From contig DOYU01000021.1 of NCBI GenBank assembly GCA_003518365.1, positions 492 to 64,491 of the forward strand: 64,000 nt of DNA. Direction: 5' to 3'. Source of the DNA: Candidatus Magasanikiibacteriota bacterium. Lineage in GTDB: Bacteria > Patescibacteriota > Patescibacteriia > Magasanikbacterales > UBA922. A model generated the notes under the pieces. That model did not search any database. It was not told the origin of the DNA and saw only the letters and a program-made list of their open reading frames with translations. Positions 21,297-41,067 of the stretch are shown here, piece after piece; the first letter of the stretch is position 1, and the number at the start of each line of letters is the position of its first letter. The position numbers and the translations under genes are program-made.

Positions 21297-21321
21297 TATA
21301 GATATATAGTACGTTGTATAG

Positions 21322-23212: not shown

Positions 23213-23220
23213 CACCCACT

Positions 23221-24198: not shown

Positions 24199-24200
24199 CT

Positions 24201-25322: not shown

Positions 25323-25323
25323 T

Positions 25324-26487: not shown

Positions 26488-26493
26488 AATATT

Positions 26494-27987
26494 ATGCACC
26501 TCACAAAAACCGACTATCTCGAATATACCTTTTGCAAAAAGAACCTTTGGCTCAAAAAACATAAGCCAGAGCTTTTTGAAGATGTAGAATTGTCGGAATT
26601 TGAAAAAAAAATTATTGAGGAAGGGAATTTGGCTGATGAGGCTGCAAGAAATTTATTTCCTGATGGAGAATTGATCGGTATCGTCGGAGTAAATGCTATA
26701 CCTGTTACAAAAAAGATACTGGAGAAAAACCCACCAGTATTATTTCAAGGTGCATTTTCATTCAATGACTTTTTTGTTCAAGCGGATATTTTACGTTACA
26801 ACGACATTTTAAAGGGTTGGGAACTTTACGAAGTAAAAGCAACAAATGATGTAAAACGAGAAATCCCTCATCACCATATCAACGACCTTGCGTTTCAAAA
26901 AATTGTAATTGAACAAAATGGGATACACATTATAAAAGCAGGCGTTATTCACCTTAACGGCGAATATAGACAACGAGGCAAAGTAAACTATAACGAACTG
27001 TTCATCATTGCCGAGCTTACTGATGAAGTACTAGAAGCGGAAGAACTTGTACGTGGGCAGATGCGTGATATTCACACATATATGGACATGGCAGAAGAAA
27101 AAAATTGTGAATGTTTGTATCGAGGTAGAAATGCACAATGTACAACGTTCGCTTACTCTAATCCTGAAGTGCCTGAATACTCTGTTCACGATATCAATAG
27201 AATTGGCGGAAGCAAAAAACTGTTTTTTGACTGGATAGATAGAGGGATCTACCGGCTCGAAGATATAGATAACCCAGAAAATCTTACAGGATCAAAAAAG
27301 GCACAATATACTGCGTACATAACAGGTAAGCCTCTCATAGACAAAGAAGCAATACAAAAAGAACTTGGTGAATTGGTTTTTCCTCTCCAATTTTTTGATT
27401 ACGAAGGATATTCTAGTGCTATCCCCAGCTTTAACGGCTTCGGTGCGTATGAACAAGTGCCTTTTCAATATTCACTACATACGCTCCATGAAGACGGAAC
27501 GCTTGAACACCGAGAATATCTCATCACAGAGCCAGAGAATGATTTGACTTTGCCATTGGTAGAAAGAATGAAAGAAGACTTTGATGATGTTGGTACTGTC
27601 ATATCTTGGTACAAATCATACGAATCACAACGAAACGACAAACTAGCAGAACTTCATCCAAATCATGCAGACTTTCTTATTGGCCTCAATGACAGAATGT
27701 TTGACCTCATGACAATGTTTTCCAAAAATTATTATGTGGATGCACGGTTCAAAGGGAGTGCAAGCATAAAAAATGTTCTGCCGGTCATTGTACCGGAATT
27801 AACGTACAAAGTACTTGGTATTCAAAAAGGAGATCAAGCAGTAGAACGTTGGGAAAAAATGATATTTGCAGATATTCATCCAGATGAAAAGAAAGAAATA
27901 AAAAAAGATTTGCTTGAGTATTGCAAATTGGATACTTTGGCGATGGTGAGGATTTGGGAGTTTCTAATGAAAATAAAAAATGTATGA
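26494..27987 (+). CDS. DUF2779 family protein (N-terminal PD-(D/E)xK/Cas4-like nuclease, C-terminal DUF2779)
   Basis: MHLTKTDYLEYTFCKKNLWLKKHKPE...FPDG, ELYEVKA (ExK), and FFDYEGYSSAIPSFNGFGAYEQVPFQYSLH, the DUF2779 hallmark. Confidence 0.75.
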   Translation: MHLTKTDYLEYTFCKKNLWLKKHKPELFEDVELSEFEKKIIEEGNLADEAARNLFPDGELIGIVGVNAIPVTKKILEKNPPVLFQGAFSFNDFFVQADILRYNDILKGWELYEVKATNDVKREIPHHHINDLAFQKIVIEQNGIHIIKAGVIHLNGEYRQRGKVNYNELFIIAELTDEVLEAEELVRGQMRDIHTYMDMAEEKNCECLYRGRNAQCTTFAYSNPEVPEYSVHDINRIGGSKKLFFDWIDRGIYRLEDIDNPENLTGSKKAQYTAYITGKPLIDKEAIQKELGELVFPLQFFDYEGYSSAIPSFNGFGAYEQVPFQYSLHTLHEDGTLEHREYLITEPENDLTLPLVERMKEDFDDVGTVISWYKSYESQRNDKLAELHPNHADFLIGLNDRMFDLMTMFSKNYYVDARFKGSASIKNVLPVIVPELTYKVLGIQKGDQAVERWEKMIFADIHPDEKKEIKKDLLEYCKLDTLAMVRIWEFLMKIKNV

Positions 27988-29219
27988 ATATGCACAGCCC
28001 TCTTTCTTCAATTCAACAACTACAATCAATATTAAGTAGTCCTTCGAAAAAAATCGGATTCCTTTTTGGGGCTGGAATTTCAATGGAAAAAAAAGATAAG
28101 AGTGATTTGGTGGTAGGAACTGATGACAAAAAAGATGAGAACGGTAATGTAATAAAAGAAGGAATGACAAGTCTCGCAATTAAAAATTTATCAGAGGAAC
28201 AAAAAAAAGCTGTAGATTTAATAAAGAATGAGGTTGAAACAGAAAATAAAAAATTTAACATCGAAAGTCTCTTATCAAAAATTTCTGAAAAAGAAAGAGC
28301 TGTTGGCGATCAAGAGCTTTGTGGTTTAACAAAAGAAAAATTATTAAATTTGAGAAAGGATATACAGGATAAAATAAGAGATTTGGTTTCCGTACATAGG
28401 GTGGATGATAAAGAAATTGATATTGAGGCATTAAATCACAGCACATTTGCTCAATGGATTAGTAATGCTGATAGAGAATTCTCAGTAGAAATTTTTACAA
28501 CAAATTACGATTATCTACTAGAACTAGCACTTGAAAAACAAGGAATTCCCTATTTCGATGGTTTTGTGGGTAGTTATGAAGCATTTTTTTGCCCTGAATG
28601 GATTGAAGATGACACGCCTGTCAAAAATTGGGTAAAGCTATGGAAATTACATGGTTCACTTGGTTGGGCACAGAATAGTAAAAAAGAAATAATTAGAACA
28701 TCTGGTAATACCGGTGCGGCGATGATATACCCTTCATTTTTGAAATATGACCATTCCAAAAAACAGCCATACTTGAGCTATATGGATAGATTGTCCGATT
28801 TTTTAAAGCAAGAAGATTCTGTCTTATTTGTTTGTGGTTATTCATTTGGAGATGAACATATAAATGAAATAATTTTGACAGCACTTACGCACTCTCGCTC
28901 ATCACATGTATTTGTGTTGAAAAATGGAGAAATGGAAAAATCTAGCCATCTTTCAAAAGAAATTGCACAAAAAAATTCTAGAATTTCAGTTTATGCAAAA
29001 CGTACCTGTATTATTGGAGGTAAATTTGGAGAATGGAAGCTCGATAGAGAACCAGACAGAAATGAATCCTACAACATATTAGATTATGCTTTTGATGAAG
29101 ACGCTACACCTGATGGAGTACCATGGACAGGAAGAGGTGATTTTCGTCTTGGAGACTTTAAAAAATTTACGGAGTTTTTAGAGCTTTTCTACCATAATTC
29201 GAGATATATCAATAAATGA
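27984..29219 (+). CDS. SIR2-like (SIR2_2) NAD-binding defence protein
   Basis: IGFLFGAGIS, FTTNYDYLLE, KLHGS and CGYSFGDEHIN. The start ATG 27984 overlaps the DUF2779 stop codon (ATGA). Confidence 0.8.
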   Translation: MNMHSPLSSIQQLQSILSSPSKKIGFLFGAGISMEKKDKSDLVVGTDDKKDENGNVIKEGMTSLAIKNLSEEQKKAVDLIKNEVETENKKFNIESLLSKISEKERAVGDQELCGLTKEKLLNLRKDIQDKIRDLVSVHRVDDKEIDIEALNHSTFAQWISNADREFSVEIFTTNYDYLLELALEKQGIPYFDGFVGSYEAFFCPEWIEDDTPVKNWVKLWKLHGSLGWAQNSKKEIIRTSGNTGAAMIYPSFLKYDHSKKQPYLSYMDRLSDFLKQEDSVLFVCGYSFGDEHINEIILTALTHSRSSHVFVLKNGEMEKSSHLSKEIAQKNSRISVYAKRTCIIGGKFGEWKLDREPDRNESYNILDYAFDEDATPDGVPWTGRGDFRLGDFKKFTEFLELFYHNSRYINK

Positions 29220-29220
29220 C

Positions 29221-30999
29221 ATGAGAAATAAAGAGACATTTATAGGTAAAGTGAGAAGTGTCACAGGTAGTACGCTTGCTATTGAGTTACACGAAGATAT
29301 TAGATCAACGTTACCTATTATTGATGGGATATTATATAGAATTGGACAAATTGGTTCTTTTATAAGAATTCCTTTTGGTTATGTTGATTTATATGGAGTA
29401 ATTACACAAGCTGGATCAGACGCTATACCAGAAAAATTAGCGGAGCAAGAGGGTTTGAAAGGATCTCGCTGGATTAAGGCTACTCTTATTGGAGAAAGGG
29501 TCGGTAATAGATTTGAAAGAGGGGTGTTGCAATTTCCTATTGCTGATGACGAAGTTCATTTGGTCACGAAGGATGATTTGGAATTGATATATGGTGGAAT
29601 TGATGAATCAAAGTCAATAGTAGTTGGACAGGTCAGTGCCTCTGAAAATCTGTCAGCAAGAATAGATATAGACAGATTAATTAATAGACATTGCGCCATA
29701 CTTGGCTCTACAGGAAGTGGAAAATCAAATACAGTTTCTGTAATACTAGAAGCAATTGCTTCTAGACATCATGATGATGAAAATATAAAAAGTACGAGAA
29801 TTCTTTTGGTCGACCCTCATGGTGAGTATGGCGATATTTTAAAAAATTATAGTCAAATATTTAAGTTAGGAGCAGACTTGTCAAAAGGAGAAAAAGAACT
29901 AGTTGTTCCATATTGGGCTTTACCTTTTCAAGAATTTATAAAAAGTTTTCCAGGTAATCTAACTGAAAAGCAGGAAGAGTACATACGTGAAGAAATTCTA
30001 CAAAGAAAGATTAAGGCTTCTAAAAAATTAAATCCTATTCCACAAGAGGAGGCAATTACAGCTGATAGCCCTATCCCTTTCAGTATTAAACAACTATGGT
30101 TTGACCTTATTGATATAGAGCAAAAAACTTTTAATAACAAGGAGTTAACCGAAGTCGCACTCGAATCACTAGGCGATCCTGAGGCACTTAAGCCTAACAA
30201 ATACTCCATAGCGTCAACAAATAATACAGCCCCTTTCAGTAATAACAGGGTTGCGCAGGGTATTTCAAGTTTTTTAAACTTAATGCGGAATAGAATTTTA
30301 GATCAAAGATTTAAGTTTTTATTCAAACTAGACACGCTCTCTCCTGGTATTGACGGAACTATTTCAAGTGATTTAGACAGTCTCATTGAAAGTTGGATTG
30401 GGACAGAGAAACCAATAACTATTTTAGACCTATCGAGTATACCCTCTGAAATCATGGGTTCAATTTCTGGTTCTTTGCTTTCAATAATTTATGAATTTCT
30501 ATATTGGGGACAGAATGAAGATGTGGGAGGTCGCCAAACACCTATTCTGTTTGTACTAGAAGAGGCACATAATTATCTAAAGTCAGGCGAGAATTCTATT
30601 GCCTCAAGAACTGTACAAAAAATTGCAAAAGAGGGTAGAAAATATGGTTCAGGTTTACTACTCGTAACCCAACGACCTTCTGAACTGGATGATACTGTTT
30701 TGAGTCAATGTGGTTCAGTTATCGCGTTGAGAATGACAAATTCTAGCGATAGAGGCCACGTAAAGAGTGCTGTCGAGGATTCCCTAAACGAGTTAGTTGA
30801 TTTGCTTCCGAGCCTAAGAACAGGTGAAGGTTTAATTATGGGTGAATGTGTAAAATTACCTATGCGAACTAAATTTTCTAAAACTAGGGAATCTAAAAGT
30901 ACAGACCCACTTGTTTCTAAGCAGTGGAAAACAACTCTTCCAGAATCCTCTAACTATAATAAAGTTTTAGAAAATTGGAGAAATAATAAATTTTCTTAA
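29221..30999 (+). CDS. HerA-like (DUF87) FtsK/HerA-clade ATPase
   Basis: Walker A ILGSTGSGKSNT, Walker B ILFVLEEAHNYL, GRKYGSGLLLVTQRPSEL. It begins 1 nt after the SIR2 stop codon. Confidence 0.85.
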   Translation: MRNKETFIGKVRSVTGSTLAIELHEDIRSTLPIIDGILYRIGQIGSFIRIPFGYVDLYGVITQAGSDAIPEKLAEQEGLKGSRWIKATLIGERVGNRFERGVLQFPIADDEVHLVTKDDLELIYGGIDESKSIVVGQVSASENLSARIDIDRLINRHCAILGSTGSGKSNTVSVILEAIASRHHDDENIKSTRILLVDPHGEYGDILKNYSQIFKLGADLSKGEKELVVPYWALPFQEFIKSFPGNLTEKQEEYIREEILQRKIKASKKLNPIPQEEAITADSPIPFSIKQLWFDLIDIEQKTFNNKELTEVALESLGDPEALKPNKYSIASTNNTAPFSNNRVAQGISSFLNLMRNRILDQRFKFLFKLDTLSPGIDGTISSDLDSLIESWIGTEKPITILDLSSIPSEIMGSISGSLLSIIYEFLYWGQNEDVGGRQTPILFVLEEAHNYLKSGENSIASRTVQKIAKEGRKYGSGLLLVTQRPSELDDTVLSQCGSVIALRMTNSSDRGHVKSAVEDSLNELVDLLPSLRTGEGLIMGECVKLPMRTKFSKTRESKSTDPLVSKQWKTTLPESSNYNKVLENWRNNKFS

Positions 31000-31010
31000 T
31001 TATTAAACAT

Positions 31011-31223
31011 ATGGAAAGAAAACCAGTACAATCATCAAATCTTGCTGCTATTGGATATGATCCTTTGACAGAAACTTTGGAGGTGGAATTCACAGATGGG
31101 TCTGTCTATGAGTATAAGAACGTCTCTCAATTTATATACGATGAGCTGATGAATGCTTCGTCTCATGGTTCTTATTTTAATAGAGAAATCAGTAAAAGTT
31201 TTCCGTATGAGAAAATAGGTTAA
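31011..31223 (+). CDS. KTSC domain protein (70 aa)
   Basis: VQSSNLAAIGYDPLTETLEVEFTDGSVYEYKNV matches the KTSC pattern (SSN...GYD...L.V.F..G..Y.Y..V). Confidence 0.75.
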   Translation: MERKPVQSSNLAAIGYDPLTETLEVEFTDGSVYEYKNVSQFIYDELMNASSHGSYFNREISKSFPYEKIG

Positions 31224-31401
31224 ATATGAAATAGGATTGTTTGAGGGAGGGGCAATTCTCCTTTTTGATTCCCCTCTTCCCCCTCCCCCAAACCAGAAAT
31301 AGAAGTTTTGAATGAATAGAATTAATTGGATACAATTGGACGTAGTTAATATATCCAAAAACCAATAATCTGTTATACTTTCATAGAAGTATCATTCTCA
31401 C

Positions 31402-33249
31402 ATGAAACATTCAACATTCCACTATCATCTATCACGTATGACCCTCCTCTTTCTCATACTGATCCCCATCCTCATCATTATTGTGGGGATGTATGTTTTC
31501 TTTTGGAAAAACGCTGTACCAACAGGAGAACAATTTGTGACCGTATGCTCGGATGAAGATGTGTCGTGCCACCCGACGAATCTCCCGTATCAAGATGCAA
31601 CACTTCCGACTCAGGAACGAGTTGTTGATTTGCTCGGCAGGATGACTCTGGCAGAAAAAATAGGACAAATGGCACTTGTTGAAAAAAATAGTATTAAAAA
31701 CAACAATGACATTGCAACGTATGGACTTGGTGCCATTATGAGTGGTGGTGGAGGAAAACCCACTGACAATAGTCCTACAGGTTGGAAAGACATGATACAG
31801 TCATTTCAAACAAAGAGCCAAACAACACGTCTTCAAATTCCCCTCTTGTATGGCGTGGATGCAAATCATGGACATGGCAATGTACCAGGAGCAACAATTT
31901 TTCCACACGCTATCGGACTTGGCGCGACAAACAACGCGGAACTCGTAAAAAATATTGCAAAAGCAACCGCACAAGAAGCAGAAGCGACTGGCGTTAATTG
32001 GATATTTTCTCCAAATCTTGACGTGACAAACGATGTCAGATGGGGACGAACGTATGAGACGTTTGGTTCAAACACAGAAACCATCGCTAAACTTGGACAA
32101 GCATCTATAGAAGGTATGAACACGGTGCCGACGATGCTTGCGGGCGCAAAACACTTTATCGGGAATGGTGCGACCGAGTGGGGATCATCTGAAAACAAAA
32201 ATTTTTTTATCGACCAAGGCAATGCTTCTGTATCTGAAGAAGAATTGCGAAAGACGCATCTGATACCCTTTATCTCCGCCATTGATGCTGGAGCCAAATC
32301 AATTATGATTGGTCTCAATCAATGGAACAATGAAAAAATTATATTTCACACATATCTTATACAGGATGTATTAAAAGGTAAGCTTGGATTTGACGGATTT
32401 GTCTTCTCAGACTGGTATGGCGTATACGAGGGGGAATCAAATAAATCAACAGCACTCATCAGTGCCATCAATGCTGGCGTAGATATGGTGATGCTTCCCT
32501 ATGATTACACACAATTCTCTCGTATCATGCACCGCGCCGTACAAAATGGCGATATTTCAGAAGCACGGATTGATGATGCTGTGACGAGAATTCTCACGGT
32601 AAAATTTGATAAAGGACTTTTTGATACAACACCAACAAACGTCTCAGACCTCGACATCGTCGGATCAAAAGAACACAAAGATCTTGCACGAATTGCAGTA
32701 CAACAATCTCTGGTGTTGTTAAAAAATAAGAACGTCCTTCCCCTCTCTAAAAAAGTGAATTCCATATTTATAGCAGGATCGAGCGCAGATAATATTGGAA
32801 GACAATCTGGTGGGTGGACAGTAGAGTGGTCTGGTATTGATGGAAATTGGATCCCCGGAACGACGATATTGGAAGGAATAAAAAACACCGTATCCCCTAC
32901 CACGAATATTCAATATGACATGCAGGGATCATTTCCAACACAAACAGAAAAAGCAGATGTTGGTATTGCGATTGTAGGAGAAATGCCGTATGCAGAAGGC
33001 TGGGGAGACAATGCACACCCATCACTTTCTGAAGAAGATATCAATACTATTGAAGCATTGAAAGCACAGAGTAAAAAAATTGTAGTGATTATTGTTTCTG
33101 GTCGTCCGCTTGATATTGCCCCATATATTGACGAGTGGGATGCCGTTGTGGCCGTATGGCTTCCTGGTTCTGAAGGAATGGGAATTGCAGATGTTCTGTT
33201 TGGAGATGTTTCATTCACAGGGAAACTTCCTATTGAGTGGACATGGTAA
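31402..33249 (+). CDS. Glycoside hydrolase family 3 (beta-glucosidase/BglX-like), N-terminal TM anchor
   Basis: LAEKIGQM, GVDANHGHGN, the GFDGFVFSDW nucleophile motif, and a C-terminal alpha/beta sandwich domain. Confidence 0.88.
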   Translation: MKHSTFHYHLSRMTLLFLILIPILIIIVGMYVFFWKNAVPTGEQFVTVCSDEDVSCHPTNLPYQDATLPTQERVVDLLGRMTLAEKIGQMALVEKNSIKNNNDIATYGLGAIMSGGGGKPTDNSPTGWKDMIQSFQTKSQTTRLQIPLLYGVDANHGHGNVPGATIFPHAIGLGATNNAELVKNIAKATAQEAEATGVNWIFSPNLDVTNDVRWGRTYETFGSNTETIAKLGQASIEGMNTVPTMLAGAKHFIGNGATEWGSSENKNFFIDQGNASVSEEELRKTHLIPFISAIDAGAKSIMIGLNQWNNEKIIFHTYLIQDVLKGKLGFDGFVFSDWYGVYEGESNKSTALISAINAGVDMVMLPYDYTQFSRIMHRAVQNGDISEARIDDAVTRILTVKFDKGLFDTTPTNVSDLDIVGSKEHKDLARIAVQQSLVLLKNKNVLPLSKKVNSIFIAGSSADNIGRQSGGWTVEWSGIDGNWIPGTTILEGIKNTVSPTTNIQYDMQGSFPTQTEKADVGIAIVGEMPYAEGWGDNAHPSLSEEDINTIEALKAQSKKIVVIIVSGRPLDIAPYIDEWDAVVAVWLPGSEGMGIADVLFGDVSFTGKLPIEWTW

Positions 33250-33262: not shown

Positions 33263-33793
33263 ATGCCAACAATAACTTTCAAAACAACACTCCTCACCAT
33301 TGGCTCATGGACTATTCTTCGATTGCCAAAACAGGCAAGCGCGAAACTCCCCTCTCGCGGCATGTGTATGGTGGAAGGAAAAATCAATGATGTGCCATTT
33401 CAGACACCACTCGAACCAGATGGTGAAGGTAGTCATTGGTTTCGTGTCGATGCCACACTGGCAAAGAAAGCTGGTGTGCATGCAGGTGACACCGTCACAC
33501 TCGCAATCGAACCAATGAAAGAATGGCCAAACCCAACGGTGCCAGCAGATCTAAAAAAAGCACTTGCTACGAATAAAAAGGTTGCGCAAGTGTGGGAAGA
33601 CATCACACCAATCGCGCGCTGGGACTGGATCAGATGGATCCGTTCGACAAACAATGCCGACACACGAAAAAAACGCATCGACGTGGCATGCTCGAAAATG
33701 ACAAGTGGCATGAAGAGACCGTGCTGCTTTAACCGCAGCATGTGCACCGAACCGAAGGTGTCGAAAAGCGGTGTGCTACTCGACATAAAGTAA
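33263..33793 (+). CDS. DUF1905 plus YdeI/OmpD-associated domain protein
   Basis: VEGKINDVPFQTPLEPDGEGSHWFRV (DUF1905) and WDWIRWIRSTNNADTRKKRI (YdeI-like). Start set at ATG 33263. Confidence 0.7.
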   Translation: MPTITFKTTLLTIGSWTILRLPKQASAKLPSRGMCMVEGKINDVPFQTPLEPDGEGSHWFRVDATLAKKAGVHAGDTVTLAIEPMKEWPNPTVPADLKKALATNKKVAQVWEDITPIARWDWIRWIRSTNNADTRKKRIDVACSKMTSGMKRPCCFNRSMCTEPKVSKSGVLLDIK

Positions 33794-33796
33794 TGC

Positions 33797-33825
33797 TTGA
33801 CTTTTGCCAAGCACTTCGATAGAGT
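33797..33825 (+). promoter_or_regulatory. Candidate promoter for the proABC operon (TTGACT-17-TAGAGT)
   Basis: TTGACT 33797-33802, 17-nt spacer, TAGAGT 33820-33825. Confidence 0.45.
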
Positions 33826-33834
33826 ATATTCACT

Positions 33835-33897
33835 ATGAATCGACGAGCATACACAACATTTGTACCGCCAACCTACACTTCTCCCCCGGGTGTATAG
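33835..33897 (+). promoter_or_regulatory. Candidate leader peptide MNRRAYTTFVPPTYTSPPGV (4 Pro in 20 aa, as two PP pairs)
   Basis: My own translation. The ATG is about 3 nt from the predicted transcription start, so the mRNA would be leaderless or nearly so. The ORF ends 26 nt before a terminator hairpin that precedes proA. Confidence 0.3.
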
Positions 33898-33922
33898 ATA
33901 TTTTTGTATCAAACTGTTACTA

Positions 33923-33945
33923 AGCACCCGATCGGGTGCTTTTTC
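33923..33945 (+). terminator. Intrinsic terminator inside the proA leader (candidate attenuator)
   Basis: AGCACCC-GATC-GGGTGCT followed by TTTTT, 22 nt upstream of the proA ATG. Leader segment CGGGTGT (33887-33893) can alternatively pair with GCACCCG (33924-33930). Confidence 0.5.
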
Positions 33946-33966
33946 TTACTTCTCTTATATTCATCT

Positions 33967-35148
33967 ATGAAGACTGAACAAAAAAACAATGTCCTCACCT
34001 CCCTCGCCACATTACTCCGAGAGCAAACGGATGCCATCTTACACGCCAATACACAGGATCTCGACAATGCGTCTGATATGGATACAGCATTGCGCGAGAG
34101 ATTGGCACTCGATGCTACAAAAATTCAAAGCATGATTACGTCGATTCACACCATTCTGACACTGCCAGATCCTGAACAAAAAATCATTTCTGCATACACG
34201 CATGACAATGGCCTCGTGATAAAAAATATGACTGTGACTTTTGGCACGATCTTGATTATCTATGAATCACGTCCGGATGTGACGATAGAGGCATCCGCGC
34301 TCGCCTTCAAAGCAGGCAACACGGTACTGCTGAAAGGTGGAAAAGAATCTCTCCATACCAATCTCGCTCTCATCGATCTCTGGCACAAAGCATTGTCTAT
34401 ACATGATATTGATACGTCATATGTAACATATCTCGATATGGACAGAGATGACACGCAATCACTCATTGCAAACAACACACATGATGTTGATCTCATCATT
34501 CCACGCGGCGGCGAAGGGTTGATTTCGTTTGTAGAAACACATGCAAGCGTGCCAGTCCTCGTGAGTGGGCGCGGCAACAATTTTCTCTATCTTGATAGTG
34601 ACGCGGATATCGACATGGCAATTGATATTATAAAAAACGGAAAATCGCGCATAAGCGTGTGCAATGCACTTGATAAAGTATTGATCAATGAGCAGGTGTC
34701 TGACGAACATATCCGCATGATCACATCCACAGTGCATGATGCTGGCATTGCGCTCCTCGGCGACGAACACATTGTAGCAATTGATGAACGCGTGATGCGC
34801 GTCGAAGATATGGAAGCAATTCTCAAAAAAGAATTTCTTTCTGCGACGCTCTTTCTTCACGTGGTAGACACTCTCGACACAGCAATATATATGATCAATA
34901 CCTATTCTGGCGGACATTCAGCAAGCATCGTCTCAAACAATGCTGCACACGCGGACACATTTCAACAGCAGGTTGACTGTGCTGCCGTCTATCACAATGC
35001 ATCATCGCGTTTTACGGATGGCGGACAATTTGGACTTGGTGGAGAAATCGCAATCAGTACTCAAAAGCTCCACTGTCGTGGTCCCATCGGACTCGATAGT
35101 CTTGTGACAAATAAATGGTTCATCACTGGAACCGGACAAATTAGATAA
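33967..35148 (+). CDS. proA: Gamma-glutamyl phosphate reductase
   Basis: IYESRPDVT, GNTVLLKGGKES, IPRGG and YHNASSRFTDGGQFGLG. Start set at ATG 33967. Confidence 0.9.
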   Translation: MKTEQKNNVLTSLATLLREQTDAILHANTQDLDNASDMDTALRERLALDATKIQSMITSIHTILTLPDPEQKIISAYTHDNGLVIKNMTVTFGTILIIYESRPDVTIEASALAFKAGNTVLLKGGKESLHTNLALIDLWHKALSIHDIDTSYVTYLDMDRDDTQSLIANNTHDVDLIIPRGGEGLISFVETHASVPVLVSGRGNNFLYLDSDADIDMAIDIIKNGKSRISVCNALDKVLINEQVSDEHIRMITSTVHDAGIALLGDEHIVAIDERVMRVEDMEAILKKEFLSATLFLHVVDTLDTAIYMINTYSGGHSASIVSNNAAHADTFQQQVDCAAVYHNASSRFTDGGQFGLGGEIAISTQKLHCRGPIGLDSLVTNKWFITGTGQIR

Positions 35149-35155
35149 CCGTATT

Positions 35156-35923
35156 ATGAAAAGAAAAAAAATCGTCCTCAAACTTGGCACATCGACCCTC
35201 ACAGCAGGCAGCACCCATATCTCGTATGGAAAACTGGAAGACATTGCAAGACAACTACTCGCCTTGCGTGACACGTATGATATTATCGTTGTTTCTTCTG
35301 GTGCGATCGCCACAGCAAAACAATTTGTGTCTCTCTCCGGCAATGGCAACACCGTTGAATTGAAGCAGGCACTCTCAGCGATTGGCCAGCCAAAATTGAT
35401 GAGTATGTATGACGAAGTGTTTGAAAAGTTTGGCTTACACATGGCGCAGTGTCTGCTCACAAATCGCGATATTGACCACGATGTCTCACGAACAAACATA
35501 AAAAATACGCTTGATGTGTTGCTTGCAAATGGATACACACCTATCATCAATGAAAATGATACAGTCGCCATCGAAGAAATTATGTTTGGTGACAACGATG
35601 CACTTGCTGCACACGTGGCCGTGATCGCCGAGGCAGACTTGGTCGTGCTTGCATCAGACGTGGATGGCTTGTATGATCGAAATATACACATAGATAAAGA
35701 TGCCATCCTTATCACCGAGGTGTCAGATTTGCAATCTGTCGAATCATACATTGGAGAAAGTACGACAACACTCGGCACCGGTGGCATGAGATCAAAATTA
35801 AAATCAGTTGAAATTTGTAGAAACGCGGGCATTGAAGTCTGGATTGTGAACGGTCAAAAACAAAACTTTCTTGTCGATGCACTCGAACATAAGATTCAAT
35901 TCACTACATTTACCACCACCTAA
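35156..35923 (+). CDS. proB: Glutamate 5-kinase (short form, no PUA domain)
   Basis: IVLKLGTSTLT, VSSGAIA, INENDTVA, GDNDALAA and GTGGMRSKL. Confidence 0.9.
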   Translation: MKRKKIVLKLGTSTLTAGSTHISYGKLEDIARQLLALRDTYDIIVVSSGAIATAKQFVSLSGNGNTVELKQALSAIGQPKLMSMYDEVFEKFGLHMAQCLLTNRDIDHDVSRTNIKNTLDVLLANGYTPIINENDTVAIEEIMFGDNDALAAHVAVIAEADLVVLASDVDGLYDRNIHIDKDAILITEVSDLQSVESYIGESTTTLGTGGMRSKLKSVEICRNAGIEVWIVNGQKQNFLVDALEHKIQFTTFTTT

Positions 35924-35924
35924 T

Positions 35925-36692
35925 ATGAAACATGGATTTATTGGATTTGGGAATATTGCGCACGCCCTCCATGCAGGATTGCAAAAAAATCAAGACAACA
36001 CATTCAAATATATCTCAAAGAGTACGCCAAACGAGAATCTCGATGCGGCAAAGAATATTGGTGACCTCGCAGAATGGGCAGATGTGATTTGGCTTTGCGT
36101 GAAACCACAACAAGCAGCCGAGGTTCTCTCTGAACTGCGCGGCGCAGATCTCTCAAACACGATCGTTGTCTCCCCTATTGCCGGAGTAAAGATCTCAACA
36201 CTGCAAGAAACACTCGGCACAGATATGCCTCTTGTCAGAATTATGCCAAATCTTGCCTTGCAGTACGGACATTCTGTCACTGCGTTTTGTGCGAGTGAGA
36301 TGGATGATGATGTGAAAAAAGTGTACGTTGCACTCGAAACCATGGGCATTGTATTGCATCTGACTGAAGACAAATTTGATCTGTTCACTGCCCTGTTTGG
36401 CAGTGGCCCAGCATTTTTGCTCCGCGTGTTGAACGTCTTTCAAGAGCAAGCCATTGTCTTGGGAATTTCTGAGCAAGAAGCTGCATCACTGGTATTAACA
36501 TTACTGAAAGGGACTACTGCATATCTAGGTGAAAACAAAGAGCAAAGTATCACAGAACTCATTGCACAAGTCGCAAGTAAAGGCGGCGTGACAGAAGCTG
36601 GATTGCACTATTTTGATGACCATCATATAGCGCAGTCATTTCAAGATATGATCTCAATTGCAAAGGAACAATCTGCACGTCTGGGGACGTAA
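35925..36692 (+). CDS. proC: Pyrroline-5-carboxylate reductase
   Basis: FIGFGNIAHAL Rossmann motif, CVKPQ, GSGPAF and ASKGGVTEAG. Start set at ATG 35925. Confidence 0.88.
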   Translation: MKHGFIGFGNIAHALHAGLQKNQDNTFKYISKSTPNENLDAAKNIGDLAEWADVIWLCVKPQQAAEVLSELRGADLSNTIVVSPIAGVKISTLQETLGTDMPLVRIMPNLALQYGHSVTAFCASEMDDDVKKVYVALETMGIVLHLTEDKFDLFTALFGSGPAFLLRVLNVFQEQAIVLGISEQEAASLVLTLLKGTTAYLGENKEQSITELIAQVASKGGVTEAGLHYFDDHHIAQSFQDMISIAKEQSARLGT

Positions 36693-36758: not shown

Positions 36759-37283
36759 ATGGCTGCAACGCAGGGAGATATCGAACAACTCTTCATGACA
36801 CTCTACGACACGTATCAAGATGCGATTTTTCGGCATTGCTATTTTCGTGTCTATCATCGAGAGATTGCAAAAGAGCTTGCGCAAGAAGCATTCATGAAGG
36901 TCTGGAACTATCTGCAAAAAGGAAATACACTCGAACACCCCAAAGCATTTCTCTATAAAATAGCGACAAACACAGTCATCGACTACCGGCGACGAAAAAA
37001 AGAACAATCACTGGAACAACTCCAAGACACAGGATTTCAAATCGCTGATACCGATCGAATGGAAGAAACCGTGGACGGGAATATGGCCATGGCACACCTC
37101 AGAGAAGTCCTCGACACGCTCGAAGACATCTATCGCGAAGCCTTTCTCTTACGCTATATCGAAGGATTGAAACCAAAAGAAATCGCCGTGATGACTGGCG
37201 AAACCGTGAATGTCATCTCAGTAAGAATCACAAGGGCAAAACGTCAGGTACAGCAGAAGATGAAACACATCCCAACGGTATGA
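36759..37283 (+). CDS. ECF-type RNA polymerase sigma-70 family factor
   Basis: Region 2 (YQDAIFRHCYFRV ... AQEAFMKVW) and region 4 HTH (LKPKEIAVMTGETVNVISVRITRAKRQV). Confidence 0.85.
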   Translation: MAATQGDIEQLFMTLYDTYQDAIFRHCYFRVYHREIAKELAQEAFMKVWNYLQKGNTLEHPKAFLYKIATNTVIDYRRRKKEQSLEQLQDTGFQIADTDRMEETVDGNMAMAHLREVLDTLEDIYREAFLLRYIEGLKPKEIAVMTGETVNVISVRITRAKRQVQQKMKHIPTV

Positions 37284-38626
37284 AAAAGCTACACAAACAA
37301 TTGAACCATGTCAGATTGACAAAGCAAGAATCGGCAGATATGCGTGGTGAGATGTTGTCATACATGAAAGAACACCCAGCAGCGGTAAGTCCTGTAAGAA
37401 AATCTGATCCTATCCGACATAGTATGGGTATAGGGAAACACTTCCCTATACGCTTACTCGTAACACACAATCGTATGTTTGCAGGAATCTTACTTGCCAT
37501 TGTGGCAGCACTCAGTGGAGGGACCGTATTTGCAGCACAAGGAGCATTGCCAGGAGATATGCTGTACCCAATAAAAGTGAACGTCAACGAAGAAGTACGT
37601 GGTGCCTTCACATTGAATACAGAAGCAAAAGTCGCATGGGAGACTACCCTTGCAGAACGTAGATCACACGAAGCAGCAACACTTGTGACAGAAGGAACAC
37701 TTGACGAAGACGTCGCAGCAGACCTTTCAGCCAGGCTCGCAACACATCTTGACAAAGCCGAATCGCTCATGGCAGAGCTGGAAGCAAAAGGAAATCTGGA
37801 AGCCGCTGCCAATGCCCAAAGTAGACTGGAAGCGTTATTGAACGTCCAACAACGCATCTTCCAATCACTTGAAGATGACGCAACCGCTGACACAGAAGAC
37901 AACACCACTACAAGCACTACAACCACAACAACGTCAACAGATACTGACGACGAGGATGATGATACAAATGATGACAATCGAAAAAATGTGTCATCAATCA
38001 CCCATATCCTCGACGCACTCGAACATAAAGCTGATGTTCAAGAACGGGTGAGAGCAGACTACGCAGACAAACTTGAGGAAAAAGATGAAGACGACCGAGC
38101 TCGTACGCTCGCTCAAACAAAACAAGTCACTGAAACAAAAATTGCAACCACAGAAAAAATCCTTCTCGCATTTGAAGAAAAAAATGGCGCACGAACAGAA
38201 GCACACACAGCATTTAACGCAGCTGTCAAGGTAAAACAAGAAGCTGATCAAAAACTTCTTGCAAAAGAATACGGCGATGCATTTGAACTCTATCACAAGG
38301 CGCAAACCATGCTTGATCGCGTTCATCTCTTCTTACGCACTTCAGCCGCTATTGGGATTGATCTCCAGATAGACACTGATCGTGATGACGACGGGGACGA
38401 CGACCGAAATCGATCAGACGAAAAACGTGAAGATGTGAATGATGAAGATACAGACGACGAGCAAAATGCTGATGATGCAGACGAGAAAGAAGATGAAGAG
38501 AAAAATGATGATGATACTGATGAAGATGACGCACTCAATATTGAGATAGAAACCGACGCACTTCTCGATATTGACGACAAAGAGACACGCAGCGAATCAA
38601 AGAGTCGCGTGAACATTGGATTGTAA
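37280..38626 (+). CDS. Single-pass membrane protein (DUF5667-like, putative anti-sigma partner) with an extremely acidic C-terminal tail
   Basis: Overlaps the sigma gene by ATGA. One TM segment (MFAGILLAIVAALSGGTVFA), then GDMLYPIKVNVNEEVR and helical repeats. The last roughly 90 aa are Asp/Glu-rich. Confidence 0.6.
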   Translation: MKKLHKQLNHVRLTKQESADMRGEMLSYMKEHPAAVSPVRKSDPIRHSMGIGKHFPIRLLVTHNRMFAGILLAIVAALSGGTVFAAQGALPGDMLYPIKVNVNEEVRGAFTLNTEAKVAWETTLAERRSHEAATLVTEGTLDEDVAADLSARLATHLDKAESLMAELEAKGNLEAAANAQSRLEALLNVQQRIFQSLEDDATADTEDNTTTSTTTTTTSTDTDDEDDDTNDDNRKNVSSITHILDALEHKADVQERVRADYADKLEEKDEDDRARTLAQTKQVTETKIATTEKILLAFEEKNGARTEAHTAFNAAVKVKQEADQKLLAKEYGDAFELYHKAQTMLDRVHLFLRTSAAIGIDLQIDTDRDDDGDDDRNRSDEKREDVNDEDTDDEQNADDADEKEDEEKNDDDTDEDDALNIEIETDALLDIDDKETRSESKSRVNIGL

Positions 38627-38860: not shown

Positions 38861-39001
38861 GACTTACAGTGGGTGACCTAAAAATTTGTTTACAGAATAG
38901 ACTCTCATATACTGAATGACGTTCAAACGTGCAGCATGTTACTTTCTCACGATTCTATCGTATACTATAGTAGAAGCATACAAAAAGATATCTTTTTCCC
39001 C

Positions 39002-39571
39002 ATGAACAACACACATATACAGCGTTGGGCCGATGCCGCATCACACGGAGATCGTGAAGCTTTTGGTCGTCTCTATGATCTGTATATCAAAGAGATCTAT
39101 CGCTTTGTCTATTACAAAACACATCACACACAAACGGCAGAAGATTTGACTGCAGATATTTTTGTCAAAGCAATCAAAAATATTTCCTCATATGTTCACA
39201 CCCACGGATCCTTTCGCACATGGCTCTATACCATCACGCGAAGTGCAGTCATCGATCACTATCGGACACAAAAACATGATTCGCCCATAGAAGATGCATG
39301 GGACATCGTGCCAACAAAAGATACCACACAACAAATCCATGCACGCATAGAGATAGATCAGCTCAAACCGTATCTGGCACAATTGTCATCAGAACAGCGA
39401 GATATTCTTGTTCTCAGGCTATGGCAAGCAAAAAGCTATAAAGAAATAGCAGACATCCTCGGCAAAAGTGAAGCAAGCTGCAAAATGGCATTCTCCAGAT
39501 CTCTCAAAACACTTCGTGACAACATGCCCCTTCATCTCTTCCTCATGTTTCTTACCACTCCATTCTTATGA
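39002..39571 (+). CDS. ECF-type RNA polymerase sigma-70 family factor
   Basis: REAFGRLYDLYIKEIYRFVYYK (region 2) and YKEIADILGKSEASCKMAFSRSLKTL (region 4). Start set at ATG 39002. Confidence 0.85.
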   Translation: MNNTHIQRWADAASHGDREAFGRLYDLYIKEIYRFVYYKTHHTQTAEDLTADIFVKAIKNISSYVHTHGSFRTWLYTITRSAVIDHYRTQKHDSPIEDAWDIVPTKDTTQQIHARIEIDQLKPYLAQLSSEQRDILVLRLWQAKSYKEIADILGKSEASCKMAFSRSLKTLRDNMPLHLFLMFLTTPFL

Positions 39572-41067
39572 AAAAAATACATACATTTCTCAAAGAACTC
39601 TACGCCATCGATCCAACGCTGAAAGCGCATGAAACAGAACTCATCATACTCCTCACGCGCATGCTCGAACAAAAACCAGACGTACATATCGACGACGCAT
39701 TTGTATCCTCACTTCGAAAACGACTTGTGGGGACACCGGTACCGTCATCACCTTCATTCTTCACGCATCTTTTTATGAACAAACAACCAGCCTTCATTGC
39801 AACAGGTGCAGTCCTCTCGCTCGCGTTGCTCGTGGGTGTCTATCACTATGGCACGACACGTACAGGCATGATCTCAGGAGGCCAATTTGCTTCGATCTTT
39901 TCACCAAATGAGGTCGTCCACAGAAATGCAGGAGCCTTTGGTGTGCTCTCGTCAACAGAAAGCGCTGCCGCACCGACAGCAGAATCAGTCTCCTTTGATA
40001 CCAGTATGCTCAGCAGCCGTATGCCAGCAGATACGGTGGTCGGCATGGGTGGCGATGGCGTGGATGCAAAGATGATGATCGCGCCAGCACCATACCGCTA
40101 CACATACACGTATACTGGCGAGCCGCTCGAGCTCACTGACACCACGCTCCCAGTCTATCGACGCATCGTGCCAACGAATGCATCACAGGCACTCGGTACA
40201 CAACTCAGCAATGTCGGCACAGGTCTTGTCGATTTGTCCTCATTTGGCACACTGCATGCAGAAACGATTTCTATCTATGACAACGAATATCGTATCACTA
40301 TCGATATTGCCAATGGGCAAGCAAGTATTTATGAAAATTACGACAATCGACAGGACATCTATCGTGAAGCCACAGAAGCAGACATGTTGCCAGAACAACA
40401 ATTGATCGACATCGCAGATGCATTTTTACGCGCACACAATATCAGCACAGCGGGTTATGGCACACCAGTCGTAGATATGCAGTGGAAAACAGTGCAAGCA
40501 AAGCAAGAAACTGCTGATGCAGCATACCAGACGTATATTCCAAATATCATCACGATCATCTATCCATTCCAGCTCGAAGATCATACTGCGCATGACTATA
40601 GCGGATTGCCAGAGGGCATGCGTGTGAATGTCGACATCTTCACAAAAAAAGTAAATAATGTCTCAAATCTCATGGCAGGAGGATTTGAAGCATCAGACTA
40701 CGATGTGACGACAGACAGTAGCCGCGTGATCTCACTTGCAGAGCAAGGTGGACTCAACATGTATCCATGGTATGCAGAAGAGTCAGAAGAACGAATCCTC
40801 GAGCTCGGCACGCCAACGCTCGTCTATATCCAGCACTACTTGCCACAGGAAGGCAATGCACGTTCGTACGAAGTGTTTATCCCTGCACTCCAATTCCCTG
40901 TACAAAATATCCCAACAGATGAACCATTCTACAGCTCACGCATTATCACGATCCCGCTGGTCACCAATATTCTCGATGAAGAAAGAGACCGCCCGATCCC
41001 TACAGAACCACCGATCCTCCTGATGAAAGATGGTGCAGAGCCGGCAGTGGAACCTGCGGTAAGATAA
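39568..41067 (+). CDS. Single-pass membrane protein, putative anti-sigma partner or extracytoplasmic sensor
   Basis: Overlaps the sigma gene by ATGA. Cytoplasmic N-terminus, one TM segment (PAFIATGAVLSLALLVGVYHY), and a roughly 400-aa external domain with no recognisable family. Confidence 0.55.
   Translation: MKKIHTFLKELYAIDPTLKAHETELIILLTRMLEQKPDVHIDDAFVSSLRKRLVGTPVPSSPSFFTHLFMNKQPAFIATGAVLSLALLVGVYHYGTTRTGMISGGQFASIFSPNEVVHRNAGAFGVLSSTESAAAPTAESVSFDTSMLSSRMPADTVVGMGGDGVDAKMMIAPAPYRYTYTYTGEPLELTDTTLPVYRRIVPTNASQALGTQLSNVGTGLVDLSSFGTLHAETISIYDNEYRITIDIANGQASIYENYDNRQDIYREATEADMLPEQQLIDIADAFLRAHNISTAGYGTPVVDMQWKTVQAKQETADAAYQTYIPNIITIIYPFQLEDHTAHDYSGLPEGMRVNVDIFTKKVNNVSNLMAGGFEASDYDVTTDSSRVISLAEQGGLNMYPWYAEESEERILELGTPTLVYIQHYLPQEGNARSYEVFIPALQFPVQNIPTDEPFYSSRIITIPLVTNILDEERDRPIPTEPPILLMKDGAEPAVEPAVR

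What the first reader, a model, noticed from the sequence alone, without database searches (positions are those of the whole stretch)
33797..33966. Candidate proline-codon leader peptide with competing terminator/antiterminator upstream of proABC
Between a near-consensus promoter (33797-33825) and proA there is a 20-codon ORF, MNRRAYTTFVPPTYTSPPGV, with two Pro-Pro pairs. It is followed by a clean terminator (AGCACCC-GATC-GGGTGCT-TTTTT, 33923-33945). The last codons of the peptide contain CGGGTGT (33887-33893). This segment can pair with the 5' arm of the terminator (GCACCCG, 33924-33930). Consider a ribosome stalled at the first PP pair (33865-33870). It would leave 33887-33893 free to form the antiterminator. 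A ribosome reaching the stop codon at 33895 would mask that segment and allow termination. This is the logic of classical amino-acid attenuation, applied to proline, with PP motifs that are intrinsically slow to translate. Two caveats apply. The ATG lies about 3 nt from the predicted transcription start, so translation would be leaderless. A stall at the second PP pair would give the opposite outcome.
Basis: inference. Interest (0 to 1): 0.55.

Follow-up and report, generated by a model that had tools for sequence, protein, structure and literature searches.

The report
Proline leader-peptide attenuator before proABC
A 20-codon mini-gene with two adjacent proline codons, followed by a stop-transcription hairpin, sits in front of the proline-synthesis genes of an uncultured ultra-small (CPR) bacterium; it has the full layout of a classical amino-acid attenuator, which is not an established mode of control for proline synthesis or for this bacterial group.

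Summary
A promoter, a 20-codon ORF (MNRRAYTTFVPPTYTSPPGV), an intrinsic terminator and a competing helix all lie at the stated coordinates, directly upstream of proA-proB-proC.

The window comes from a Candidatus Magasanikbacteria (CPR) genome. Only three distinct versions of this leader could be found in public data. All three keep:
- both promoter hexamers
- the 9-nt gap from the -10 hexamer to the ATG
- the 20-codon length and the TAG stop
- the first Pro-Pro pair (VPPTYT)
- the terminator, with one compensatory G-C to A-U change
- the antiterminator, 100% pairable

The promoter spacer, codons 1-9 and the spacer after the ORF diverge freely.

- An anti-antiterminator hairpin (33873-33897) lies just downstream of the first Pro-Pro pair, giving the full 1:2 / 2:3 / 3:4 layout of trpL.
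- The antiterminator is longer than described (CCC.CGGGUGU with GCACCCG...GGG) and about as stable as the terminator.
- The second Pro-Pro pair is not conserved. It is a by-product of the C-rich antiterminator strand.

The genome almost lacks Shine-Dalgarno sequences, so an SD-less, nearly leaderless start is not odd here.

Verdict: a probable proline-sensing, ribosome-mediated transcription attenuator, a new member of a known kind. Function is inferred, not shown.

The parts
33797..33802 (+). -35 hexamer TTGACT
   Evidence: Conserved as TTGACA in L001 and TTGACT in L080, while the 17-nt spacer is only 5/17 identical between the window and L001 (counted by eye on the sequences printed; the whole -35..-10 block is 52% identical there). 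The rpmG promoter in this window has the same type, TTGACA-17-TATAGT.
33820..33825 (+). -10 hexamer TAGAGT
   Evidence: TATAGT in L001 and TACAGT in L080, giving the consensus TAnAGT.
33832..33832 (+). Predicted transcription start: A, 7 nt after the -10 hexamer and preceded by C. This gives a 3-nt 5' UTR (ACU) before the AUG.
   Evidence: Inference from promoter geometry. The 9 nt between the -10 hexamer and the ATG keep their length in all three variants, with 78-100% identity. The start site has not been mapped.
33835..33897 (+). Leader ORF: 20 codons plus TAG, MNRRAYTTFVPPTYTSPPGV
   Evidence: Same length, start and stop in L001 (MNRYIQTTVVPPTYTPPSGV) and L080 (MNRHAYITLVPPTYTSPSGV).
33865..33870 (+). 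Regulatory Pro-Pro codons CCG CCA (codons 11-12), inside the invariant block GTACCGCCAACC (33862-33873)
   Evidence: Invariant in all variants, third codon positions included. The block has no pairing partner downstream beyond what shuffles give and occurs only once in the window.
33873..33882 (+). Region 1, the 5' strand of the anti-antiterminator (1:2) hairpin
   Evidence: Present in the minimum-energy fold of each variant and in the RNAalifold consensus. Pairable in 95% of cells. Covered by a ribosome whose P site is at codon 10, 11 or 12.
33883..33897 (+). Region 2: CCC.CGGGUGUAUAG. It pairs either with region 1 or with regions 3/4 as the antiterminator 5' strand. It holds the last codons and the stop codon.
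   Evidence: Antiterminator pairs are 100% pairable in all three variants.
33898..33921 (+). Spacer between region 2 and the terminator, with a possible pause U-run at 33901-33905
   Evidence: Poorly conserved between the window and L001 (48%), with length conserved. The pause role is inference only.
33922..33930 (+). Region 3: the terminator 5' arm AAGCACCC(G), also the antiterminator 3' strand
33934..33941 (+). Region 4: the terminator 3' arm GGGTGCTT
   Evidence: The pair G33924-C33939 becomes A-U in L001, a compensatory change.
33940..33951 (+). U-rich tract of the intrinsic terminator (TTTTTCTTACTT)
33967..35148 (+). proA (glutamate-5-semialdehyde dehydrogenase), 393 aa, with no SD sequence
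   Evidence: Pfam Aldedh. Homologues are named as such by their sources. The start at ATG 33967 is supported by the 393-396-aa homologues and the conserved N-terminus.
35156..35923 (+). proB (glutamate 5-kinase)
   Evidence: Pfam AA_kinase.
35925..36692 (+). proC (pyrroline-5-carboxylate reductase)
   Evidence: Pfam P5CR_dimer and F420_oxidored. The start is taken from the public gene call.

Best explanation
This is a ribosome-mediated (leader-peptide) transcription attenuator that couples proABC transcription to the supply of charged tRNA-Pro.

Proposed sequence of events:
1. Transcription starts about 3 nt before an AUG, and a 20-codon ORF is translated from a nearly leaderless, SD-less start.
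2. When proline is plentiful, the ribosome runs to the TAG at 33895. It covers region 2 (33883-33897), so regions 3 and 4 form the terminator. RNA polymerase stops at the U tract, 25 nt before proA.
3. When prolyl-tRNA is scarce, the ribosome stalls at CCG CCA (codons 11-12). Pro-Pro bond formation is intrinsically slow, which should sharpen the stall. The footprint reaches about 33877-33883 and covers region 1.
4. Region 2 stays free and pairs with region 3, plus the first Gs of region 4, as soon as they emerge. The terminator cannot form and proABC is transcribed.
5. With no translation at all, the 1:2 and 3:4 hairpins both form and transcription terminates.

Shown: the sequence elements, their conservation, and the alternative folds. 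Inferred: the start site, translation of the ORF, stalling, and the response to proline.
For: - Context. The element lies directly upstream of proA-proB-proC (Pfam). Only 25 nt separate the terminator from proA, and no conserved promoter lies in between.
- The element travels with proA. L001 has a different upstream gene and still carries it.
- Conservation footprint in three variants. Codons 10-21 are 92-94% identical in every pair and the terminator arm is 91-100%. In the same window-L001 comparison, the promoter spacer is 5/17 identical (my count on the sequences), codons 1-9 are 56% and the post-ORF spacer is 48%. The ORF length, ATG, TAG and VPPTYT are invariant.
- Pairing. The terminator is 100% pairable with one compensatory G-C to A-U change. 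The antiterminator is 100% pairable, with U-G becoming U-A at the same column. The 1:2 hairpin is 95% pairable. RNAalifold independently predicts the 1:2 hairpin and the terminator.
- Footprint-constrained folds. With the P site at codon 10, 11 or 12, the antiterminator is the minimum-energy structure of the nascent RNA: -16.7 / -13.1 / -18.0 kcal/mol with the P site at codon 10 or 11, and -15.7 / -13.0 / -15.9 at codon 12. With the ribosome at the stop codon, only the terminator forms (-13.2 / -13.8 / -14.2).
- Complementarity exceeds shuffles.
- Pro content of the peptide is 15-20%, against 3.5% in the window's genes.
- SD-less starts are the norm in this genome, 41 of 45 genes.
- Precedents. 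Leaderless leader peptides are described in Deinococcus deserti (PMC4007540) and in mycobacteria (bioRxiv 10.1101/834739). A Pro-codon attenuator, mgtP, is known in Salmonella (PMC3641672). Codon choice within Pro-Pro pairs tunes pausing (PMC8129111 abstract), which could explain the conserved third positions.
- The sign of the regulation is right for a biosynthetic operon.
Against: - Only three distinct variants exist, and effectively two leader lineages, because the window and L080 leaders are 86-100% identical. The support is therefore conservation; there is only one covarying pair, and the shuffle controls are not significant.
- Only two Pro codons are conserved.
- The invariant 12-nt block GTACCGCCAACC is conserved at synonymous sites and in the flanking Val and Thr codons. 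A pure 'Pro codon' model does not require this, and a trans-factor binding site would also explain it.
- The transcription start is inferred, and translation from a 3-nt 5' UTR is untested in this phylum. A search for -10 boxes at leaderless distance before other genes gave no clear pattern.
- The 1:2 hairpin of the window variant is weak (-4.8 kcal/mol).
- In the window variant, a second PP at codons 17-18 would favour termination if the ribosome stalled there.
- No RNA data are available.
Confidence: 0.65

Rival explanations
1. A terminator/antiterminator switch operated by a trans-acting factor rather than by a translating ribosome. The factor could be an RNA-binding protein, a small RNA or a metabolite that binds the invariant single-stranded block GUACCGCCAACC(UACAC). 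The ORF would be incidental.
For: - The 12-nt block is invariant, including synonymous positions and the flanking Val and Thr codons, while neighbouring codons vary freely.
- The block has no pairing partner in the leader.
- The AUG has almost no 5' UTR and no SD sequence.
- ORF openness over 18 codons is not in itself improbable: 34% of shuffles give an ORF of 12-28 codons.
Against: - The ATG sits at a fixed distance from the -10 hexamer, the length is a fixed 20 codons, and the stop codon lies inside region 2. All of these are conserved, and all are what a ribosome-driven switch needs.
- The block contains the Pro-Pro codons, and the operon makes proline.
- The block occurs nowhere else in the 64-kb window, so there is no sign of a regulon.
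- The leader before the terminator is only about 90 nt with little structure, which is small for a riboswitch aptamer. No Rfam family matches.
Confidence: 0.15
2. The same attenuator, but the signal is the speed of Pro-Pro peptide-bond formation rather than proline supply. That speed reflects EF-P activity or general translation capacity.
For: - The conserved regulatory codons are a Pro-Pro pair in a conserved V-P-P-T context.
- PP motifs stall ribosomes and uncouple transcription from translation when EF-P is lacking (PMC5021804).
- The mgtCBR leader ORF mgtP links Pro codons, and in later work EF-P, to attenuation (PMC3641672 and PMC5299641).
Against: - The regulated genes are exactly the proline pathway, which argues for proline as the physiological signal.
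- A two-codon stall site also works for Trp in trpL without any special chemistry (established knowledge).
- The two signals are not exclusive.
Confidence: 0.1
3. There is no regulation. The hairpin is a leaky constitutive terminator or insulator, for instance the terminator of the upstream gene. Alternatively, the promoter-to-terminator unit is an independent small RNA or micropeptide gene, and proABC is expressed by read-through.
For: - The terminator lies downstream of the YdeI/OmdA-like gene.
- Transcripts released at attenuators can act as sRNAs elsewhere (PMC6614838, listed).
Against: - The unit stays with proA when the upstream gene differs, as in L001.
- There is no conserved promoter between the terminator and proA.
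- A conserved alternative helix that exactly competes with the terminator, plus a conserved helix that competes with that one, is not expected for a plain terminator.
- The N-terminal half of the peptide is not conserved.
Confidence: 0.07

Closest known systems
E. coli trp operon attenuator (trpL) and the other classical leader-peptide attenuators (hisL, pheL, leuL, thrL, ilvL)
   Same: - A short ORF carries cognate codons; trpL likewise has only two, in tandem, in a 14-codon ORF.
- The 1:2 / 2:3 / 3:4 helix layout is the same.
- The regulatory codons lie just upstream of region 1.
- The ribosome at the stop codon covers region 2.
- An intrinsic terminator lies just before the first biosynthetic gene.
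- The distance from the regulatory codons to the end of the terminator is about 75 nt, comparable to trpL (established knowledge; geometry).
   Different: - The amino acid is proline and the operon is proABC.
- There is no SD sequence and a predicted 5' UTR of only about 3 nt.
- The host is a CPR bacterium.
- There is no sequence or covariance-model similarity to any Rfam leader family.
Salmonella mgtP (mgtCBR leader) and mgtL (mgtA leader), proline-codon leader ORFs
   Same: Translation of consecutive Pro codons in a leader ORF decides between alternative leader RNA structures, and responds to proline-charged tRNA (PMC3641672; review PMC12856214).
   Different: - Those elements control Mg2+ transport and virulence genes, not proline synthesis.
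- They sit in long multi-signal leaders.
- mgtA control is Rho-dependent (PMC12856214).
- They are unrelated in sequence and come from Proteobacteria.
Leaderless leader peptides: the 14 predicted in Deinococcus deserti, and the polycysteine leaderless short ORFs of mycobacteria
   Same: The leader ORF starts at or within a nucleotide or so of the transcript's 5' end. It is enriched in the cognate amino acid and lies upstream of amino-acid or tRNA-synthetase genes (PMC4007540; bioRxiv 10.1101/834739).
   Different: - The phyla and the amino acids differ.
- In the text I could read, no proline case was mentioned. The Deinococcus supplementary table was not available.
- I did not read far enough into the mycobacterial paper to compare its mechanism with an intrinsic terminator.
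Proline-specific T-box leaders of Bacillus subtilis proBA and proI (from my own knowledge, not checked here)
   Same: The same pathway is controlled by the same physiological signal, uncharged versus charged tRNA-Pro, through a terminator/antiterminator choice.
   Different: A T-box binds tRNA directly and needs a leader of about 200-300 nt with a specifier loop and a T-box sequence. This leader is about 110 nt and has no T-box match.

Membership tests
Ribosome-mediated (leader-peptide) transcription attenuators | A short ORF in the 5' leader of an amino-acid biosynthetic operon, enriched in codons of the cognate amino acid | tested here: met
   The 20-codon ORF lies upstream of proABC. It has 3-4 Pro per 20 codons against 3.5% in the window's genes, and the tandem CCG CCA is invariant in the three variants.
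Ribosome-mediated (leader-peptide) transcription attenuators | An intrinsic terminator between the leader ORF and the first structural gene | tested here: met
   An 8-bp GC-rich stem, a 4-nt loop and a U tract at 33922-33951, 25 nt before proA. It is conserved, with a compensatory change.
Ribosome-mediated (leader-peptide) transcription attenuators | An antiterminator helix (2:3) mutually exclusive with the terminator | tested here: met
   CCC.CGGGUGU pairs with GCACCCG...GGG. It is the minimum-energy fold of the nascent RNA when region 1 is masked, is 100% pairable in three variants, and is better than shuffles.
Ribosome-mediated (leader-peptide) transcription attenuators | An anti-antiterminator (1:2) whose 5' strand is covered by a ribosome stalled at the regulatory codons, while a ribosome at the stop codon covers region 2 | tested here: met
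   The 1:2 hairpin appears in every minimum-energy fold and in the RNAalifold consensus. The footprint sizes used are textbook values, not measured for this organism.
Ribosome-mediated (leader-peptide) transcription attenuators | Conservation of the ORF and the helices in relatives | tested here: met
   Three distinct variants were found. The sample is small and there is only one covarying pair.
Ribosome-mediated (leader-peptide) transcription attenuators | The ORF is translated, and readthrough rises when the cognate charged tRNA is limiting | not testable with these tools
   This needs RNA-end mapping, ribosome profiling or reporter assays.
Curated Rfam leader families (Trp, His, Leu, Thr, Phe leaders and others) | A match to the family covariance model at or near the gathering score | tested here: not met
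   No cis-regulatory family reached the gathering score in the window. Within 33600-34100 only chance-level hits with E >= 2.5 were found.
T-box leaders | A specifier loop and T-box sequence; a match to the Rfam T-box model | tested here: not met
   No T-box hit, even at E <= 10. The leader is only about 110 nt.
Leaderless mRNAs | The transcription start lies at or within a few nt of the start codon | tested here: inconclusive
   A fixed 9-nt distance from the -10 hexamer to the ATG, with a conserved CA at the 7th position, predicts a 3-nt UTR. The genome is almost SD-free, but no consistent -10-to-ATG geometry was seen at other genes. The start site is not mapped.

The most novel reading that the evidence does not exclude
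This would be the first ribosome-mediated attenuator described both for a proline biosynthetic operon and for any CPR/Patescibacteria genome. It would have been assembled on an operon that this lineage probably acquired from Bacteroidota. It would work from a nearly leaderless ORF and use a Pro-Pro pair, so that it integrates prolyl-tRNA supply with EF-P-dependent Pro-Pro bond formation. That would imply tight transcription-translation coupling in these ultra-small bacteria.
Probability: 0.2. Interest if true: 0.65.

Novelty: new member of a known kind. Interest (0 to 1): 0.5.

Why it matters
- Proline synthesis is usually described as controlled by feedback inhibition of ProB or, in Firmicutes, by T-boxes (my own knowledge). 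I found no described leader-peptide attenuator for pro genes in five full-text literature searches, but that is not proof of absence.
- Almost nothing is known about gene regulation in CPR bacteria, which cannot be grown alone. My one search combining CPR/Patescibacteria terms with attenuation terms listed no paper on attenuation in CPR among the twelve results shown.
- A working leader-peptide attenuator requires the ribosome to follow RNA polymerase closely. The element would therefore be indirect evidence for coupled transcription and translation, and for efficient SD-less or leaderless initiation, in this phylum.
- It is a compact (about 115 nt), self-contained part that could be tested in vitro.
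- It would also show a regulatory leader being fitted onto a horizontally acquired operon.

Tried and rejected
- **Rfam.** The whole window at gathering score and the locus at E <= 10 gave no leader, T-box or riboswitch family.
- **More relatives.**
  - The genome-contig scan with ProA gave one close locus (L001); everything else was 36-41% identical (Clostridia, Streptomyces and others).
  - The metagenome-contig scan with a ProA alignment gave only L088, which equals L001, and two Bacteroidota-type loci.
  - The 5.8-billion-protein search gave one cluster at >= 90%, one protein at 72%, then Bacteroidota at <= 60%.
  - All cluster members that could be looked up carry a leader identical to the window's.
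  - A viral-contig scan with the conserved core found nothing.
- **A homologous leader in the donor-like lineage.** Eight Bacteroidota-type proA loci have no Pro-rich uORF combined with a terminator. Covariance model R1 hits only the three known variants.
- **A pairing partner for the invariant block GUACCGCCAACC.** None beyond what shuffles give, and no other copy in the window.
- **A second promoter between the terminator and proA.** The window has a TATATT 5 nt before the ATG, but there is no -35 hexamer and it is not conserved in L001 or L080. Rejected.
- **Leaderless geometry as a genome-wide habit.** Inconclusive.
- **Other attenuator-like terminators in the window.** The others are ordinary 3' terminators, for example that of rpmG.
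- **Programmed +1 frameshifting at CCC-C.** The +1 frame is open through the terminator in all three variants, but its end point relative to proA is not conserved. Recorded as a curiosity, not adopted.
- **Covariation statistics.** Three sequences are too few, and the shuffle controls are not significant.
Full report
**What is there**

- TTGACT (33797-33802), a 17-nt spacer, then TAGAGT (33820-33825).
- An ATG at 33835 that opens a 20-codon ORF, MNRRAYTTFVPPTYTSPPGV, ending in TAG at 33895-33897.
- CCG CCA at 33865-33870.
- CGGGTGT at 33887-33893.
- A hairpin AAGCACCC-GATC-GGGTGCTT (33922-33941) running into TTTTTCTTACTT.
- The ATG of the next gene at 33967.

Two small corrections apply. The T run is five T (33940-33944), two of which close the stem. 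The promoter matches only 9 of 12 consensus positions, and sites of that quality are as common in this region as in shuffles (17 found against 17.4 expected).

**Genes and organism**

The three downstream genes are proA, proB and proC (Pfam Aldedh; AA_kinase; P5CR_dimer with F420_oxidored). The upstream gene is a YdeI/OmdA-DUF1905 protein that ends at 33793.

ProA is 100% identical to a protein from Candidatus Magasanikbacteria GW2011_GWD2_43. The nearest genome locus is another Magasanikbacteria MAG (L001). The window is therefore from a CPR/Patescibacteria genome.

**More than chance?**
- The best duplex between the leader (33835-33915) and the terminator 5' arm is -18.7 kcal/mol. Dinucleotide shuffles give -9.6 +/- 2.4, and 9 of 2000 are as good.
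- With a slightly different arm definition, the same test gives 45, 21 and 30 of 2000 in the three variants. The duplex always ends at the same leader position.
- With the ATG fixed, an ORF of 12-28 codons that contains PP arises in 3.1% of shuffles.
- The whole leader folds with a z-score of -2.08.

**Relatives**

All available routes gave only three distinct versions of the leader. The routes were the genome scan, the metagenome scan, the 5.8-billion-protein search, cluster members and twelve contig look-ups.

The three versions are:
- the window type, identical in nine other contigs
- L001, which equals L088
- L080

Their peptides are MNRRAYTTFVPPTYTSPPGV, MNRYIQTTVVPPTYTPPSGV and MNRHAYITLVPPTYTSPSGV.

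L001 has a different upstream gene and still keeps the whole unit, so the unit belongs to proA.

Identity by block:

| Block | Identity |
|---|---|
| Codons 10-21 | 92-94% in every pair |
| Terminator 5' arm | 91-100% in every pair |
| -35 to -10 block, window vs L001 | 52% (hexamers 5/6 each; spacer 5/17 by my count) |
| Codons 1-9, window vs L001 | 56% |
| Spacer after the ORF, window vs L001 | 48% |

The region from the -35 hexamer to the terminator loop has no indel in any variant. The ATG, the TAG, the 9 nt between the -10 hexamer and the ATG, and the 20-codon length are all fixed.

This is a clear conservation footprint: promoter hexamers, start codon, Pro-Pro pair plus the two switch strands, and terminator.

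**The structures**

The minimum-energy fold of each variant and the RNAalifold consensus contain two hairpins.
- One is the terminator.
This is a 1:2 anti-antiterminator. Its energies are -4.8, -11.3 and -10.6 kcal/mol in the three variants.

I then imposed ribosome footprints, taken as about 15 nt 3' of the first P-site nucleotide (a textbook value), and folded the nascent RNA.
- With the P site at codon 10, 11 or 12, meaning a ribosome waiting for or joining Pro11-Pro12, region 1 is covered. The minimum-energy fold of the RNA made so far is an extended antiterminator: CCC.CGGGUGU (33883-33893) pairs with GCACCCG (33924-33930) and GGG (33934-36). Energies are -16.7 / -13.1 / -18.0 kcal/mol with the P site at codon 10 or 11, and -15.7 / -13.0 / -15.9 at codon 12.
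- With the ribosome at the stop codon, only the terminator forms (-13.2 / -13.8 / -14.2 kcal/mol).

Pair counts across the three variants:
- Terminator: 100% pairable, with one compensatory G-C to A-U change.
- Antiterminator: 100% pairable. The same G-to-A change turns a U-G pair into U-A.
- 1:2 hairpin: 95% pairable.

With three sequences the shuffle controls are not significant. The support is conservation and slide controls, not covariation.

First, the second Pro-Pro pair is not conserved (SPP, PPS, SPS). Its C-run is the 5' strand of the antiterminator, so it is there for RNA reasons. A starved ribosome would in any case meet codons 11-12 first.

Second, the start is indeed almost leaderless. 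A conserved CA lies 7 nt after the -10 hexamer, which predicts a 3-nt UTR. Only 4 of 45 genes in the window have an SD-like motif, and proA itself has none, so SD-independent initiation is normal in this organism.

I could not show that leaderless geometry is common here. Leaderless leader peptides are described in Deinococcus deserti (PMC4007540) and in mycobacteria (bioRxiv 10.1101/834739).

**Mechanism proposed**

This is classical attenuation with proline as the signal.
- A stall at CCG CCA masks region 1, the 2:3 helix forms, and transcription reads through into proABC.
- An unimpeded ribosome reaches the TAG and masks region 2, the 3:4 helix forms, and transcription terminates.
- With no ribosome, the 1:2 and 3:4 helices both form and transcription terminates.

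The geometry is close to that of trpL, from my own knowledge of that system: two tandem regulatory codons, about 75 nt from them to the end of the terminator, and a stop codon at region 2.

The sequence elements, their conservation and the folds are shown. The start site, translation, stalling and the proline response are inferred.

**Unexplained residue**

The 12 nt GTACCGCCAACC are invariant, including third codon positions and the flanking Val and Thr codons. They have no pairing partner in the leader and no other copy in the window.

There are two candidate explanations.
- Constraint from codon and context on the strength of the Pro-Pro pause. In E. coli, codon choice within Pro-Pro pairs tunes pausing (PMC8129111 abstract).
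- A binding site for a trans-acting factor. This is the main rival (0.15).

Other rivals are an EF-P or translation-capacity sensor built on the same architecture (0.10), and an unregulated terminator or independent small RNA (0.07).

**Comparison with what is known**
- No Rfam family matches, so this is not a T-box and not a member of any curated leader family.
- By mechanism it meets every sequence-level criterion of leader-peptide attenuators (see the membership table). The functional criterion cannot be tested here.
- Proline-codon leader ORFs are known for Salmonella mgtCBR and mgtA (PMC3641672; PMC12856214), but those do not control proline synthesis.
- In five full-text searches I found no leader-peptide attenuator described for pro genes. 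In the one search combining CPR terms with attenuation terms, none of the twelve listed papers concerns attenuation in CPR. This is absence of evidence in a partial library.

**Origin**

Outside Magasanikbacteria, the nearest ProA proteins are from Bacteroidota (55-60% identity). Most of the longer loci fetched there show the same proA-proB-proC order.

Eight such loci have no comparable leader. The covariance model built from the three variants hits nothing else.

The operon was probably acquired horizontally, and the leader is specific to the CPR lineage.

**Verdict**

It is strengthened by the 1:2 hairpin, the extended antiterminator and the conservation pattern.

It is a new member of a well-known kind of regulator. 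The interest lies in the amino acid, the near-leaderless start and the host phylum. Confidence in the mechanism is 0.65 and interest is 0.5.

Noticed in passing
window 33967-36692; loci L085, L087, L089-L093, L099, L101: The proABC operon of this CPR genome has its nearest non-CPR relatives in Bacteroidota (ProA 55-60% identical). Most of the longer loci fetched there share the proA-proB-proC order. CPR bacteria usually lack amino-acid synthesis, so this is probably a horizontally acquired operon. No phylogenetic tree was made.
   Followed up: partly
window 33797-35148 compared with L001:578-1931 and L080:3832-5182: Divergence is discordant between the leader and proA. Window and L001 proA are 90% identical in DNA (84% at third positions), yet the unconstrained parts of their leaders are at about 30-55%. 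Window and L080 proA are 72% identical (53% at third positions), yet their leaders are 86-100% identical. This suggests a recombination breakpoint near the proA start, and a wider unsampled pool of such leaders.
   Followed up: partly
whole window, 45 gene starts: Only 4 of 45 genes have an SD-like motif within 20 nt of the first ATG. Translation initiation in this genome appears largely SD-independent. No 16S rRNA gene lies in the window, so the anti-SD sequence could not be checked.
   Followed up: partly
window 33881-33970: The +1 frame relative to the leader ORF stays open through the terminator in all three variants. In the window it ends at a TGA overlapping the proA ATG (ATGA). The window has a CCC-C sequon and L001 a CCU-C sequon, which are prone to +1 frameshifting in E. 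coli (PMC8129111 abstract). The end point is not conserved in L001 or L080, so this is probably coincidence.
   Followed up: partly
window 53139-53385, minus strand: An unlisted small gene for ribosomal protein L33 (my reading of the translated sequence; no database search was run), about 53320-53165. It has a clean TTGACA-17-TATAGT promoter, a 5' UTR of about 35 nt with no SD sequence, and its own terminator at 53156-53139. It is a useful internal example of this organism's promoter type.
   Followed up: partly
window 36759-38626 and 38936-41067: Two consecutive pairs lie immediately downstream of proC. Each consists of an ECF-type sigma factor followed by a long protein: DUF5667 in the first pair, no Pfam hit in the second. 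The first pair is syntenic in L080 and L094-L098.
   Followed up: no
window 20000-32000: A stretch of lower G+C (0.36-0.40 against about 0.44-0.49 elsewhere) contains a run of same-strand genes, including a HerA/FtsK-like ATPase at 29221-30999. It may be a mobile or secretion-related island.
   Followed up: no
window 33904-35148: Public annotation (P0001, 414 aa) starts proA at TTG 33904, inside the leader spacer and across the terminator. Homologues of 393-396 aa and the conserved N-terminus MxTxQKNN place the true start at ATG 33967.
   Followed up: yes
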